Assembly (NCBI GenBank): GCA_039545335.1
Contig: BCIN01000004.1
Span: forward strand, 124,001 to 188,000
Reading direction: 5' to 3'
Length of the DNA stretch: 64,000 nt
Source: Kondoa subrosea
Lineage: Eukaryota
Shown: positions 17,091-20,816 of the stretch, in pieces
Layout: each line of letters begins with the position of its first letter
How positions within the stretch are numbered: position 1 is the stretch's first letter
The notes under the pieces: generated by a model
Seen by the model: only the letters and a program-made list of their open reading frames with translations
Databases searched by the model: none
Told to the model about the DNA's origin: nothing
Made by a program: the position numbers and the translations under genes

Positions 17091-17683
17091 CTTCATTCCG
17101 CCGATGTTTGGGAGAAAGTCGCTCGAGCTACCAAAGCACATCGTCTGCCTGCGAATACATCATTCTGAACGCCTTGTCATTCATATCTTGCCACTCATTG
17201 CTATCAGTCAAGAGTGAGTGTTCTCGCATCAAAGTCTCTGTCTACTCTGCTTTCGACTTCATGATGAGGAAGCAGTCAATGTAAATCCTCTGTGTACCTC
17301 CCGGAGGGTGCATATGCATCGAACTTCGACGATGAGATTATCGATTGTCTTGCTACAGCCAAAATACGGTACAGGAGTAACTTCTCGCTCTCGCCAATCA
17401 TTGCGCCCTATTGTCCCACCCATTCCTGGTCCTGTAATACAGCAATGTTCTCTAGGGGCCAAGCGGTCACTTTAAACGTTTTTTTTTGGTTTTTTTTTTT
17501 TTTTTTTTTTTTTTTTATACAAATCATTAATTCTCGATCTCTCTATCAATCTNTTACGTGCTCGGTCTCGCTGTTTTGTTCTCTGAAGTAGAAAGGGAAC
17601 GCTGAAATAGACAATTTGCTTGTAGGTAGTACAGAACTTGTATGCTAGCTTATTCATAGAACGACCATTGCAAACGAAAATCG

Positions 17684-17900
17684 GCACGCGCCCTCTAGGA
17701 GGACTCGCACAGTAGAGTACTATTATGCGATATGGCAGGAGATTCTTCAGCCCCAGTCACCGAAGTTCCTGGAACGCCAAATTCACCGCCGAAACGAATG
17801 AAAGTGGGTATAGACGTTGTGAGGGATTCCAACCCGACCTCGCATTAGATGCGACGCCCCTCTGTGGTCTTAGGCCGCATTTCGCCTGCACAGAGGCCTA
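17684..17900. repeat. 217-bp direct repeat, copy 1 (3' UTR of the retrotransposon)
   Basis: Matches 19934-20150 with 6 substitutions by my count, all clustered at 17719-17743. Confidence 0.97.
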
Positions 17901-17911
17901 GAACTCCTGCC

Positions 17912-19909
17912 TTAGCGTTTGGGATCCGACTTTGGTTTGGATAAAACCGCAGTCTTTGATGATGTAGTAGAACGAGGAGCTGGCTTCCTCTTTTGAGCGC
18001 TCTTCCTCTTCTTCTGTGCTGCTGCTTTCTTGGCCATTTTCGCTCGAATCTTCATTTCTGCTGATGTTGCTGAATCGAAGATCTTCTTAGCGACTCGCAG
18101 CATCTGTTCTCTTGTCAGATGCTTTGATGCCATCATTGAGAAGCGTTGATGAGTTGCAAGTTTGTGGATTTGGTGTTGGTATACCATCATGAACGCTACT
18201 GTAATCGGATCGTACGATGGGCATACGAACTGCGTTATATCAGGTGGTTCCTTCAGATGAGCAGGTGGGCCAGCAAGTGCCCATATTTCCTTTGAGGTGG
18301 TGCAATGCGAGAAGATGTGAGCGAAATCTTCTCTGACCATATCTCCGCACAAAGAACACTGCGAATCATTGCCAACTGGACGATGATTCTTCCATTCAAT
18401 CTTGCGGGATTGTGGTTGTAGAGAGCCGAGAGATATGCGATGGGCTGTGTCGACCTCTTCTGGTAGAATTCGATCGAGTAAAGCTGTTGTTGTCCATGCT
18501 TTCTGCCATCGTTCATGGATAAGGTTTGGGAAACGAGACTTCCAGCCTCCCGGTTCGATTGTTCTCCTGAAGAGCTGATGTTGCCTACGCTGATTGACTA
18601 CATCTTGTGCTACTGCAATGATATCTCCACCTATTTGACGGAAATTGCTGGAGTCTACCATCGTAAGGAAACCCCACGCATTGTGCTGCTTCCTTTCTAC
18701 TTGCTTGGATAAGAAGGTTTCGCTCCAGTTGAGGTTCTTTGGAAGGTATGTTGCAAGCTCCCAGGCTTCAAGGTAATCTTGCCATGTTGGCGACAAGAGG
18801 TTGCGCATTTTGGATCTTGCGACTGCCCATGCGACCCGCTTGTCATCTGGTGCGTTGCAAAAGAGAGCTCTCCAGTTCCAGAAGTATCCAGGATCATCGG
18901 AAGAAGTTCTTGGCTGTTTTGCAACTGCATTGACTAATCGCTTGCGTATAGTGAGTAGATGCGGTTCCTGAGACATCACGGGATCGCATAAGAGCCAGTA
19001 GATCCACACTCCTCTGGAGCCATAGAGTTGTCTCTTGAGTGGAAGTAAGCCGAAACCGCCTGAGGCCATTGGAGTGGTAAGCCTGTCCAATGAGACCTCA
19101 TGCCTACCTCTCTTCCACATCATGTTGACTACAGCCCGCTCCAGATCATCTATGAAATGGTCTGGACATGGTAAGAAAGCGTCCAAGTAGAAAATCTTTG
19201 AGTAGAGACGAGTGTTGATGATATGCGTTCTAGTAGCTATTGGGAGGTCGAACATAGGTATACTGTTGCCGCGGCGCTTGACCTTGGCCAGCATCTCGGT
19301 CCAGACAACATTTCTGTCGACGTTTCTTCCAACCATGACTCCGAGTAATGGAAAGTCGTCCCTTTGCACTGGCCACCCTTGATATACTTCTCCTTGGACT
19401 ATATCCCTCATTGCACCCAGTGGATACAAGAGAGACTTCTTTTTCGACGCAAGTGAAGCGGAGGCCTTTTCATACGTGTTGTTGCAATTTGAAAGAGTCT
19501 GGAGATCCTCTCCATCGGCCACTCCTGTCTGGGCATCATCTGCAAAAGCTCTTTCGCGATAGACTTTACCTATGACAAGAGGGATCCCTCGAACGCGTTT
19601 TCGGATCATGCAGAGGAGAGGTTCGACCAATATTGCATATATCCAAGGCGATTCTGGTCCTCCTTGTCCGACACCAGTGTGTAGATCGAATTGCCGTCCA
19701 ATCCATCCGTTCATGTAGATTGATCCAGTTCGGCCAATGAATGCAGATTTGATGTTGGACATCATGCGTGGTCCGAAACCCAAGGTTTCAAGGCATTTGA
19801 TGATCCATTTGTGGTCGGGATAGTCGTATGCATTCTCGAAGTCGGTTACTGCGATCATGCCTGGATAGTCGTCTTCCTCCTCGACTCTTCTTTGGAATTC
19901 AGCAAACGC
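17912..19909 (-). CDS. Truncated ORF2: C-terminal part of reverse transcriptase plus CCHC zinc finger; endonuclease missing
   Basis: DFENAYD (motif A), GVGQGGPESP (motif B), AFADD (YADD-like), GGFGL, CSLC..EDFAHIFSHC; 17 further in-frame codons upstream of the ATG at 19858. Confidence 0.9.
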   Translation of the reverse strand, partial: AFAEFQRRVEEEDDYPGMIAVTDFENAYDYPDHKWIIKCLETLGFGPRMMSNIKSAFIGRTGSIYMNGWIGRQFDLHTGVGQGGPESPWIYAILVEPLLCMIRKRVRGIPLVIGKVYRERAFADDAQTGVADGEDLQTLSNCNNTYEKASASLASKKKSLLYPLGAMRDIVQGEVYQGWPVQRDDFPLLGVMVGRNVDRNVVWTEMLAKVKRRGNSIPMFDLPIATRTHIINTRLYSKIFYLDAFLPCPDHFIDDLERAVVNMMWKRGRHEVSLDRLTTPMASGGFGLLPLKRQLYGSRGVWIYWLLCDPVMSQEPHLLTIRKRLVNAVAKQPRTSSDDPGYFWNWRALFCNAPDDKRVAWAVARSKMRNLLSPTWQDYLEAWELATYLPKNLNWSETFLSKQVERKQHNAWGFLTMVDSSNFRQIGGDIIAVAQDVVNQRRQHQLFRRTIEPGGWKSRFPNLIHERWQKAWTTTALLDRILPEEVDTAHRISLGSLQPQSRKIEWKNHRPVGNDSQCSLCGDMVREDFAHIFSHCTTSKEIWALAGPPAHLKEPPDITQFVCPSYDPITVAFMMVYQHQIHKLATHQRFSMMASKHLTREQMLRVAKKIFDSATSAEMKIRAKMAKKAAAQKKRKSAQKRKPAPRSTTSSKTAVLSKPKSDPKR

Positions 19910-20150
19910 TTTTTTTTTTTTTTGATTTATTCAGCACGCGCCCTCTAGGAGGACTCGCACAGTAGAGTGCTATTGTGAGAAAAGGCAGGAGAATCTTCAG
20001 CCCCAGTCACCGAAGTTCCTGGAACGCCAAATTCACCGCCGAAACGAATGAAAGTGGGTATAGACGTTGTGAGGGATTCCAACCCGACCTCGCATTAGAT
20101 GCGACGCCCCTCTGTGGTCTTAGGCCGCATTTCGCCTGCACAGAGGCCTA
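19910..20150 (-). mobile_element. Short polyadenylated retroposed copy of the element 3' UTR (repeat copy 2 at 19934-20150)
   Basis: On the minus strand: 217-bp UTR copy, TGAATAAATC (contains AATAAA), then A14 (poly(T) 19910-19923). Confidence 0.85.
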
Positions 20151-20227
20151 AGCGCTCTACAGATAAATTTTGATTGATTTATAAACGCGTTGTGAGCGCA
20201 AGCCTCTCAATATTGATTTCCTTAGAT

Positions 20228-20382
20228 CTGAACGTGGTCGAGTGGTTAAGACGATAGACTTGAATACCCATTCAAACGTTATCTATTGCAATTTTGCGCG
20301 TAGGTTCAAATCCGTGAGTCGCTTTCCTCAGTAACAATTTCTATTCGCTCACGTTTGCGCTTCTTGAATAGTGCCGTTCAGG
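20228..20382 (+). tRNA. tRNA-Ser(UGA) with a canonical intron (20265-20280) and a second GT-AG insert in the T-stem (20314-20371)
   Basis: Acceptor CTGAACG/CGTTCAG with G73; D-arm GTC..GAC containing A-box TGGTCGAGTGG; anticodon stem ATAGA/TCTAT with anticodon TGA; long variable arm; T-arm GTAGG-TTCAAAT-CC|TGC. Confidence 0.9.
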
Positions 20383-20391
20383 TGACACATC

Positions 20392-20397
20392 TTTTTT
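20392..20397 (+). terminator. RNA polymerase III terminator (T6) of the tRNA gene
   Basis: TTTTTT starts 10 nt after the discriminator base and is the first run of 5 or more T after the tRNA start. Confidence 0.8.
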
Positions 20398-20816
20398 GCA
20401 TCTACGCCGTACGCAAAGGGATCAGCAAACTATCGCTTAGTGTGTTCTCATTCCGATCCCAAGAGCGCTGCAGCATACGGGGTGCCAGGCAATCATTCCC
20501 TCGCCAGTCTTTATGTTGAAGGCGTCCGGATAGACAAGGCAGGTCTAAGCACTGCAGCACACCGTAGTAGGAAGACTATGGAAAGCAGTGACACCACACA
20601 GAGCATGCAGCCAAGCAACGGACGAATGTAGAATAAAAGCGTTTGGATAGATCATGAAGAAAAGAGTTCCACACAACCCAAAACAGAGATATTGACAGCA
20701 CATCACGAGTTGCAGCAAATCTACGACGTATTTGGAGTACCGCAGACCTAGAGTTATTGATTAGAAATGTTATCGAGACATATTATAAGAAACGGGCCTA
20801 ACCTCATCGGCATTCG

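What the first reader, a model, noticed from the sequence alone, without database searches (positions are those of the whole stretch)
17479..20227. Non-LTR retrotransposon stack inserted head-to-head just upstream of the tRNA gene: candidate tRNA-gene-targeting LINE in a fungus
Seen: two polyadenylated units in tandem on the minus strand, with the outer 5' end (20150) only 77 bp from the tRNA start. It is the only mobile element I could recognise in 64 kb of gene-dense DNA. Established: position-specific integration upstream of Pol III genes is known for yeast Ty1/Ty3 (LTR) and Dictyostelium TRE5-A (non-LTR, about 50 bp upstream, 5' end facing the tRNA); many Tx1-clade elements are target-specific. 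Inference: an L1/Tx1-like family here uses tRNA upstream regions as safe harbours. If it depends on Pol III factors, this also implies that the interrupted tRNA gene is active.
Basis: partly seen in the sequence, partly recalled or inferred. Interest (0 to 1): 0.75.

Follow-up and report, generated by a model that had tools for sequence, protein, structure and literature searches.

The report
Truncated LINE pair beside tRNA gene
Two shortened copies of a jumping gene of the LINE type were inserted one after the other at exactly the same cut site 71 bases in front of a serine tRNA gene of a yeast-like fungus, which looks like the tRNA-seeking elements of slime moulds, but whether the family really aims at tRNA genes could not be tested.

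Summary
On the minus strand lie two poly(A)-ended, 5'-truncated units of one non-LTR family. The inner unit (19909 to 17479) has a 665-codon RT plus zinc-finger frame, a 220-nt 3' module and a 164-nt tail. The outer unit (20150 to 19910) is the same module with a short tail. The outer 5' end lies 77 nt from a tRNA-Ser(UGA) gene.

The protein belongs to an L1-like clade that is common in Microbotryum fungi.

Junction letters fit two successive insertions at one nick, AACGCT^CTACAG, 71 nt upstream of the tRNA. The target duplications match in 5 of 6 letters.

Contigs of two public runs point to roughly eight copies, all truncated, and no full-length master. Of four other 5' junctions, three carry the same YTACAR motif 4-7 nt from the junction, and one shares ten letters with the window's site. 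So the family picks its nick by a short sequence.

Homing on tRNA genes could not be tested, because no assembly is held and only 30 flank letters per copy were visible. My odds are about 40% for Pol III-directed homing and about 50% for motif-guided insertion with a chance or tolerated position.

The scan has noted similar LINE stacks beside tRNA genes in other fungi.

The parts
17479..17516 (-). Poly(A) tail of the inner unit (sense A27-CC-A9; on the + strand T9-GG-T27)
   Evidence: Read directly
17517..17680 (-). 164-nt 3' tail specific to the inner subfamily; includes the N at 17553
   Evidence: Absent from the outer unit. X2 contig 17554-17675 has about 2.9 times single-copy depth and no difference
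17681..17900 (-). 220-nt 3'-UTR module, copy 1
   Evidence: 97% identical to 19931-20150. It folds at -83.3 kcal/mol, z -2.4 against shuffles. No Rfam match
17912..19909 (-). 5'-truncated ORF2 remnant of the inner unit: the last two thirds of the RT domain, a C-terminal Cys/His motif, and stop TAA at 17914-17912
   Evidence: Pfam RVT_1 and zf-RVT. Aligns with APE+RT proteins P0002 and P0003; C525, C528, H538 and C543 are invariant. No stop in 665 codons
19910..19923 (-). A14 tail of the outer unit, abutting the 5' end of the inner unit
   Evidence: Read directly. Bridged by X2 contig 19115-19954
19924..20150 (-). Outer unit: 220-nt module copy 2 (19931-20150) plus the short tail, sense ATAAATC
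   Evidence: The contig covering 19954-20126 has about 5.8 (X1) and 7.2 (X2) times single-copy depth
17475..17480 (+). Left copy of the proposed target-site duplication, AACGTT (the last letters merge with the poly(T))
   Evidence: Matches AACGCT at 19905-19910 in 5 of 6 letters
19905..19910 (+). Middle copy, AACGCT: the right duplication of the inner unit and the left duplication of the outer unit
   Evidence: It overlaps the first codons of the inner frame (sense GCG TTT), so it may also be microhomology with the element
20151..20156 (+). Right copy, AGCGCT
   Evidence: Matches the middle copy in 5 of 6 letters
20157..20162 (+). CTACAG, the motif just beyond the proposed first-strand nick (20156^20157), 71 nt upstream of the tRNA
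   Evidence: YTACAR lies 4-7 nt from the 5' junction in 4 of 5 junctions of the family, this one included. Background is 0.00135 per position per strand
20228..20382 (+). tRNA-Ser(UGA) gene with a 16-nt canonical intron (about 20266-20281) and a 58-nt GTGAGT...AATAG insert (20314-20371) in the T stem. T6 follows at 20392-20397
   Evidence: ARAGORN after removal of the insert. The only B-box match lying in a tRNA gene in the window. Single-copy depth

Best explanation
Shown: the stretch is a head-to-tail pair of dead, 5'-truncated copies of two subfamilies of one low-copy L1-like LINE family. Its closest named relatives are in Microbotryum and other Microbotryomycetes.

Inferred from the junctions: both copies entered by target-primed reverse transcription at one and the same + strand nick, AACGCT^CTACAG. 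The inner copy came first. Its insertion duplicated the 6-7 nt on the primer side of the nick and so rebuilt the site on the tRNA side, and the outer copy then used it again.

Inferred from five junctions: the family's endonuclease chooses its nick by a short sequence, ^YTACAR. The best form is GCGCT^CTACA.

My leaning, at about 50%: this sequence preference, together with survival only in roomy intergenic DNA (here about 3 kb between divergent genes), is enough to explain the locus. On this reading the position 71 nt upstream of the tRNA gene is not a property of the family.

The family diverged while its ORF was under selection, but no full-length source copy is visible now.
For: Identity:
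- RVT_1 and zf-RVT match the frame.
- The family profile hits human L1 ORF2p at E about 1e-69 to 3e-70, against R2 at 1e-29.
- Relatives P0002 and P0003 carry an APE endonuclease domain.
- 26 of the 70 hits are Microbotryum proteins.
- The window's protein sits in an 18-row clade (SH-aLRT 100) with all 7 named Microbotryomycetes rows, out of 41 rows that I picked from 83 proteins.

Same nick:
- The three 6-mers AACGTT, AACGCT and AGCGCT sit exactly at the three junctions. Each neighbouring pair matches in 5 of 6 letters; the chance per pair is about 0.005 before allowing for offsets.

Motif:
- The other 5' junctions seen as loose ends are at 19168, 20093, 17876=20126 and 19983.
- Three of these four have CTACAA or TTACAA 4-7 nt from the junction; the fourth has CGACAG.
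- The 19168 copy shares GCGCTCTACA with the window, a string that occurs only once in the 64 kb.
- With a background of 0.0054 per flank, 3 of 4 has a probability of about 6e-7.

Copy number and history:
- Depth ratios are about 6-7 for the module and about 3 for a variant of the RT tail that differs by 13 of 610 and 41 of 963 letters. Depth is single-copy over 19115-19939.
- Of the 40 listed differences (46 exist), which fall in 37 codons, 25 codons are synonymous and 27 differences are at third positions.

Against a need for tRNA homing:
- The contigs of three other junctions run at least 255 nt into their flanks.
Against: The only transposon in 64 kb lies 71-77 nt from the only tRNA gene found there, in the TRE5-A orientation. 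A uniform draw puts it within 100 nt with a probability of about 0.3%, or roughly 1% if only intergenic DNA counts.

A motif worth about 10 bits has thousands of sites in a 19-Mb genome. Two hits on one site among about eight copies are therefore not expected unless something else concentrates insertions there, or the preference for the 10-letter form is very strong.

The duplications are imperfect. The middle one overlaps letters that also read as RT (FAEFQ aligns with I[AG]xMQ of relatives).

Only 30 letters of each other flank were visible, so nothing shows that those copies are away from tRNA genes. tRNA genes here are split by introns and may be unique at 31-mers, which weakens the contig argument. 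Depth is only a rough proxy for copy number.
Confidence: 0.5

Rival explanations
1. This is Pol III-directed homing, working like TRE5-A. The element's ribonucleoprotein is drawn to tRNA genes occupied by TFIIIB/TFIIIC, and its endonuclease cuts the nearest acceptable ^YTACAR site upstream. Copies therefore pile up head to tail with their 5' ends facing the tRNA gene. This would be the first tRNA-targeting non-LTR element in a fungus, and it would imply that the split tRNA-Ser gene is bound by Pol III factors.
For: The orientation matches TRE5-A, whose 5' end faces the 5' end of the tRNA. TRE5-A copies in the reference genome lie 37-211 bp upstream, 59% of them within 47+/-3 bp (PMC5391098, passages read). 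Here the distances are 71 nt (nick) and 77 nt (element end).

Two separate insertions used the same nick. This is the only transposon and the only tRNA gene found in 64 kb. The genome is compact at about 19 Mb, the setting in which such targeting evolved elsewhere (PMC5006619, abstract).

The tRNA gene keeps its A box, B box and a T6 terminator. The contig of the 19168 copy ends 61 nt past the junction, as it would at a repeated sequence; this is a very weak hint.
Against: This is one locus only. The family shows a sequence motif at the nick, and two sites share 10 letters, which a purely position-guided element does not need. With such a motif, a site inside a narrow window upstream of a tRNA gene would be rare: about 3% for a 20-nt window at the measured density. 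The tether would therefore have to be loose.

Three other junction contigs run at least 255 nt without a break. There is no ORF1 or full-length copy to inspect. The review table of Pol III-targeting elements lists non-LTR examples only from dictyostelids (PMC5911963, passages read).
Confidence: 0.4
2. This is poly(A)-seeded stacking, as for Zorro3. The short outer unit came first, and the long inner unit later entered the A/T run of its tail. On this reading the stack says nothing about tRNA genes.
For: The inner tail reads A27-CC-A9. That could be the inner unit's own tail followed by the rest of the outer unit's tail. L1-type endonucleases often cut T-runs, and Zorro3 integrates at poly-A sequences (PMC3956500, passages read). 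Earlier notes of this scan read two Microbotryum stacks this way; I did not check them.
Against: The 5' end of the inner unit (sense GCGTTT) would then match the flank behind the stack (CGTTT) and the duplication at the outer unit by chance, at about 1%. The inner 5' junction would lack the YTACAR motif that 4 of 5 junctions have. None of the four other 5' flanks seen is an A-run. The outer unit's own duplication would match in only 4 of 6 letters.
Confidence: 0.07
3. There was a single insertion event with a template switch. The reverse transcriptase stopped on the inner RNA and jumped to the poly(A) end of a second LINE RNA, giving both units at once.
For: A14 abuts the truncated inner 5' end with no extra letters. 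Template jumping is described for Zorro3 (PMC3956500, passages read).
Against: The outer flanks then match in only 4 of 6 letters, and the resemblance of the middle 6-mer to both flanks is left unexplained.
Confidence: 0.04
4. The tandem layout is an assembly artefact.
For: There is an N at 17553. The 38-nt poly(T) is not bridged by any contig, and the window's own version of 17914-18493 was not among the contigs laid.
Against: Contigs at single-copy depth without a difference cover 19115-19954 across the middle junction, and 20121-20700 from inside the module through the tRNA gene. A 57-kb contig runs from the left flank into the poly(T).
Confidence: 0.01

Closest known systems
L1-clade LINEs of Microbotryum (anther-smut fungi) and other Microbotryomycetes
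   Same: The ORF2 layout is APE, RT and a C-terminal Cys/His motif. The window's protein falls inside their clade (SH-aLRT 100). 26 of 70 profile hits are Microbotryum proteins. [quoted passage not shown]
   Different: Identity to any relative is only 25-35%. The family is low-copy (about eight copies), and all copies are truncated in a 19-Mb genome. A nick motif is described here, and I found it in none of the papers read.
TRE5-A of Dictyostelium discoideum (L1-type, tRNA-gene-targeting)
   Same: [quoted passage not shown] Copies are 5'-truncated with oligo(A) tails. Insertion is repeated at one tRNA gene. The host genome is compact (PMC5391098 and PMC5006619, passages read).
   Different: TRE5-A sits at 47+/-3 bp and needs no sequence motif; here the nick is at 71 nt and a motif is present. 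Targeting by TRE5-A is shown genome-wide and by experiment, while here there is one locus. No kinship beyond the L1 group was tested.
Zorro3 of Candida albicans (L1 clade)
   Same: A fungal L1-like LINE in a compact genome, with insertion close to genes and in promoter regions (PMC3956500, passages read).
   Different: Zorro3 integrates at poly-A tracts. The junctions here point to ^YTACAR with a 6-7 nt duplication.
Tx1-group sequence-specific LINEs (recalled, not read here)
   Same: Sequence-guided nicking, and head-to-tail re-insertion at a rebuilt target.
   Different: Those elements use one long defined target. Here the flanks differ beyond 6-10 letters. No Tx1 reference sequence was available for a tree.

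Membership tests
L1-group non-LTR retrotransposon (LINE) | Reverse transcriptase of the non-LTR type | tested here: met
   RVT_1 at E 1.2e-8. The family profile hits human L1 ORF2p at about 1e-69 against R2 at 1e-29
L1-group non-LTR retrotransposon (LINE) | N-terminal APE-type endonuclease in ORF2 | tested here: inconclusive
   This part is missing from the window because both copies are 5'-truncated. It is present in relatives P0002 and P0003 (PF03372)
L1-group non-LTR retrotransposon (LINE) | C-terminal Cys-rich zinc motif behind the RT | tested here: met
   zf-RVT at E 3.1e-5, 25 bits, just under the 27.5-bit cut-off. C525, C528, H538 and C543 are invariant in 6 sequences
L1-group non-LTR retrotransposon (LINE) | Poly(A) tail, variable 5' truncation, target-site duplication | tested here: met
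   Tails of A14 and A27-CC-A9. Six different 5' truncation points, two in the window and four from reads. Duplications match in 5 of 6 letters, so they are imperfect
L1-group non-LTR retrotransposon (LINE) | Placement with reference L1, Tx1, TRE, Zorro and Ylli in an RT tree | not tested
   No reference sequences of these elements could be brought in. The tree holds only database hits
tRNA-gene-targeting non-LTR elements (TRE5-like behaviour) | Most copies lie in a defined window upstream of tRNA genes | not testable with these tools
   No assembly is held. Only 30 flank letters of four other copies were visible. Metagenome scans gave 0 and 1 loci, neither with flanks
tRNA-gene-targeting non-LTR elements (TRE5-like behaviour) | [quoted passage not shown] | tested here: met
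   Both units at this one locus. This is one locus only
tRNA-gene-targeting non-LTR elements (TRE5-like behaviour) | Position set by the Pol III complex, not by target sequence | tested here: not met
   YTACAR lies 4-7 nt from 4 of 5 junctions, and two sites share 10 letters. This does not exclude a tether as well
Poly(A)-tract-seeking LINE (Zorro3-like) | Insertion at A/T runs | tested here: not met
   None of the four other 5' flanks, nor the window's outer flank, is an A-run. The inner unit abutting A14 has another reading

The most novel reading that the evidence does not exclude
A fungal L1-like LINE lineage (Microbotryomycetes) homes on the upstream edge of Pol III-occupied tRNA genes and picks the nearest ^YTACAR site there. 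This would be a third, independent invention of tRNA-gene targeting by a non-LTR element and the first outside the dictyostelids. In this genome many tRNA genes carry mRNA-type introns (notes of this scan, unchecked except for this tRNA-Ser). A reverse transcriptase working next to nascent Pol III transcripts would also be a candidate source for copying such introns into tRNA genes.
Probability: 0.38. Interest if true: 0.72.

Novelty: new member of a known kind. Interest (0 to 1): 0.42.

Why it matters
If the family does aim at tRNA genes, it would show that the safe-harbour strategy of yeast LTR elements and amoeba LINEs also arose in basidiomycete LINEs. The related Microbotryum genomes hold hundreds of copies on which to test it.

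It would also mark the intron-split tRNA-Ser gene as bound by Pol III factors, which bears on whether such split tRNA genes are in use.

If it does not, the locus is still a clean example of a LINE that re-uses a nick site rebuilt by its own target duplication, and it gives a testable cleavage motif for an uncharacterised fungal endonuclease.

Tried and rejected
- **Earlier notes of this scan:** look-ups by sequence with the module and with the protein found 0 windows. Look-ups by place and words found no other copy of this family.
- **Metagenome scans:** a 28-nt piece of the module gave 0 matches. The protein alignment gave one 1860-nt contig (L001) that lies within the element, so it has no flanks.
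- **Sequencing runs:** no RNA holder was listed, so nothing can be said on expression of the element or the tRNA.
- it laid contigs only. The poly(T) 17471-17552 was skipped as a repeat. The window's own version of 17914-18493 was not among the contigs laid. 62 pieces, 3 loose ends and 6 differences were not shown.
- **tRNA-like or ribozyme reading of the 220-nt module:** Rfam gave nothing at E up to 1. A B-box-like GGTTGGAATCC is present but no A box, so a SINE reading was dropped.
- **LTR or DIRS reading of the 220-nt direct repeats:** rejected, because each repeat is followed by its own poly(A) and the frame starts in mid-RT.
- **A tRNA gene in the rebuilt empty site or in the left flank:** ARAGORN, even at 80% of its usual threshold, gave only one weak call at 17303-17408 with no B box, which I take as spurious.
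- **Literature:** four searches (listings and abstracts seen) turned up no fungal tRNA-targeting non-LTR element. Supplements were not opened.
Full report
**Anatomy**

Read on the minus strand, which is the sense strand of the element, the stretch runs in this order:
- 77 nt of AT-rich spacer that starts at the 5' end of a tRNA gene
- a 220-nt module (20150 to 19931)
- the letters ATAAATC and A14 (to 19910)
- an open frame from 19909 to the TAA at 17914-17912
- 11 nt
- the same 220-nt module (17900 to 17681, 97% identical)
- a 164-nt tail
- A27-CC-A9 (to 17479)

The frame (P0001) matches Pfam RVT_1 from profile position 69 onward, so its front is missing. It also matches zf-RVT. The N at 17553 is the only one in the window.

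**The tRNA gene**

ARAGORN and Rfam see no tRNA anywhere in the window. By eye, 20228-20382 has a perfect 7-bp acceptor stem, a class II D arm, anticodon UGA with a 16-nt intron, a B box, and T6 ten nt behind the gene. A 58-nt insert (20314-20371, GTGAGT...AATAG) splits the 3' strand of the T stem. With that insert cut out by coordinates, ARAGORN calls tRNA-Ser(UGA).

I did not pursue that question further.

**What family it is**

- The closest proteins are only 25-35% identical. Two of them, P0002 and P0003, are full length and carry an APE endonuclease domain in front of the RT.
- A profile of the family hits human L1 ORF2p at E 3e-70 to 9e-69 and R2 proteins at 1e-29 or weaker (11 distinct chains matched).
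- A second search found 70 relatives at E up to 1e-10. Of these, 26 are proteins of Microbotryum intermedium, M. silenes-dioicae or M. saponariae.
- I built a quick maximum-likelihood tree of 41 rows, picked by hand from the 83 proteins held (42 were left out). The window's protein sits in an 18-row clade (SH-aLRT 100) with all 7 named Microbotryomycetes rows, and the plant L1-like rows form a separate clade.

**The rest of the family in this genome**

No assembly is held. Two public runs from one sample hold the stretch as contigs of about 19 Mb in total. They may be the data behind the assembly.

Laid at 80% likeness (27 and 51 pieces), the unique flanks have depths of 144 (X1) and 54.5 (X2). 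Against those figures:

| Region | Depth, X1 / X2 | Ratio to single copy | Differences from the window |
|---|---|---|---|
| Module contig 19954-20126 | 842 / 394 | about 6-7 | none |
| RT-tail variant contig | 479 / 152 | about 3 | 13 of 610 and 41 of 963 letters |
| Inner tail 17554-17675 (X2) | 156 | about 3 | none |
| 19115-19939 | 132.5 / 53.3 | 1 | none |

Depth is only a rough guide to copy number, as the tool itself warns. Taken at face value, there are about eight copies. All are cut shorter than the window's inner copy, and no full-length source is seen at 80% likeness or above.

Of the 40 listed differences between the window's copy and the variant (46 exist), 27 are at third codon positions, and 25 of the 37 affected codons are synonymous. 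So the two lineages parted while the ORF was still under selection, not by decay after insertion.

**Junctions and target choice**

On the + strand, which is the strand that primes, the three junctions read:
- ...CTTTAAACGT | poly(T)
- ...CAGCAAACGC | T14
- ...GGCCTA | AGCGCT CTACAGATAAA

The 6-mers AACGTT (17475-17480), AACGCT (19905-19910) and AGCGCT (20151-20156) each match their neighbour in 5 of 6 letters.

The simplest reading is one original site, AACGCT^CTACAG. The inner copy entered first and duplicated the 6-mer. The outer copy then entered at the rebuilt nick on the tRNA side. The nick is 71 nt from the tRNA.

The middle 6-mer overlaps letters that also read as RT (FAEFQ against I[AG]xMQ in relatives). 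That fits joining by microhomology, but it means the duplication cannot be proven from this locus alone.

The reads tool also showed where contigs of other copies leave the element, with up to 30 flank letters each. There are four other 5' junctions:

| Junction | Flank letters (+ strand) |
|---|---|
| 19168 | GCGCTCTACAACAAC... |
| 17876 = 20126 | TGTTTCCTACAAAAA... |
| 19983 | TGCCTTACAAAGTTT... |
| 20093 | TCGACAGACGTTTGT... |

Three of the four, like the window's own flank, carry YTACAR starting 4-7 nt from the junction. The fourth has a one-letter variant. The motif's density in the window is 0.00135 per position and strand, so the chance per flank is about 0.005, and 3 of 4 has a probability of about 6e-7.

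The 19168 copy shares ten letters, GCGCTCTACA, with the window's site. That string occurs only once in the window. Beyond those letters the flanks differ, so this is not one long fixed target. The family thus chooses its nick by a short sequence. I found this in none of the papers read.

**Does it aim at tRNA genes?**

For:
- The only transposon among 44 long open frames lies next to the only tRNA gene found in 64 kb.
- The orientation is the one TRE5-A always takes (PMC5391098, passages read).
- Two separate hits fell on one site. With a motif this short there are thousands of candidate sites in 19 Mb, so a double hit calls for something more.

Against:
- This is one locus.
- A motif-bound endonuclease would rarely find a site inside a narrow window upstream of a tRNA gene, so any tether must be loose.
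- A very strong preference for the 10-letter form could by itself explain re-use of a rebuilt site.
- Three other junction contigs run at least 255 nt (the table's cap) into their flanks. De Bruijn contigs usually break at multi-copy tRNA genes. This last point is weak here, because intron-split tRNA genes may be unique at 31-mers.

Notes of this scan describe LINE stacks just upstream of tRNA genes in two anther-smut windows and two yeast windows. One follow-up found other copies away from tRNA genes and read its stack as a pile-up at poly(A) tails. These notes are unchecked, and they were flagged because of the adjacency, so I count them as context only.

Weighing all this, I put about 40% on Pol III-directed homing and about 50% on motif-guided insertion whose place beside the tRNA is chance or mere tolerance. 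The stack lies in about 3 kb between a histidine-kinase gene and the APC1 gene, which point away from each other. The remainder goes to poly(A)-seeded stacking, a single event with a template switch, or an artefact.

**What is known**

- The 2018 review of Pol III-targeting retrotransposons lists non-LTR examples only from dictyostelids (TRE5, TRE3, NLTR-A, NLTR-B). It notes that the target choice of fungal LINEs is not worked out (PMC5911963, passages read).
- The 2016 survey covers dictyostelids (PMC5006619, abstract and passages).
- Four literature searches (listings and abstracts) turned up no fungal tRNA-targeting LINE.

As it stands, this is a new, low-copy member of a known kind of element, with a new observation on its nick motif and an open, testable question about tRNA homing.

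**Verdict**

The decisive step is a copy-by-copy census on the assembly and in Microbotryum genomes.

Noticed in passing
window 20228-20382: The tRNA-Ser(UGA) gene carries a normal 16-nt anticodon-loop intron and also a 58-nt insert (20314-20371) with GTGAGT at its start and AATAG at its end, inside the 3' strand of the T stem. ARAGORN and Rfam miss the gene until the insert is removed. It has single-copy depth in the reads.
   Followed up: partly
window 20168-20191: A 24-nt stretch between the nick and the tRNA resembles the 3' end of the outer unit (CGCGT..ATAAATCAA..AAAA, 18 matching columns). It could be a tiny third unit or a chance match in AT-rich DNA. It contains the TATAAA (20180-20185) that would otherwise pass for the upstream TATA element of the tRNA gene.
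   Followed up: partly
window 20152-20157 and 20194-20199: A perfect 6-nt inverted repeat, GCGCTC / GAGCGC, lies 36 nt apart and brackets the AT-rich stretch. The left arm holds the proposed nick. AGCGCT is itself a palindrome.
   Followed up: no
window 19925 (reads): One contig continues past the outer-type tail, after sense ...TGAATAAAT, with 21 other letters and no poly(A). Either a third kind of 3' end exists, or the outer unit was polyadenylated early, right behind its AATAAA.
   Followed up: no
window 17392-17430: A 39-nt piece of the left flank also lies on a short contig with different letters on both sides, so it occurs a second time in the genome.
   Followed up: no
window 17914-18493: In both runs, only the diverged multi-copy variant was laid on this part of the inner copy. 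The window's own version did not appear among the contigs shown. This may be the tool's filter.
   Followed up: no
window 20166-20180 and 20209-20219: The tRNA upstream spacer holds two copies of A(A)T(T/A)TTGATTT, 43 nt apart.
   Followed up: no
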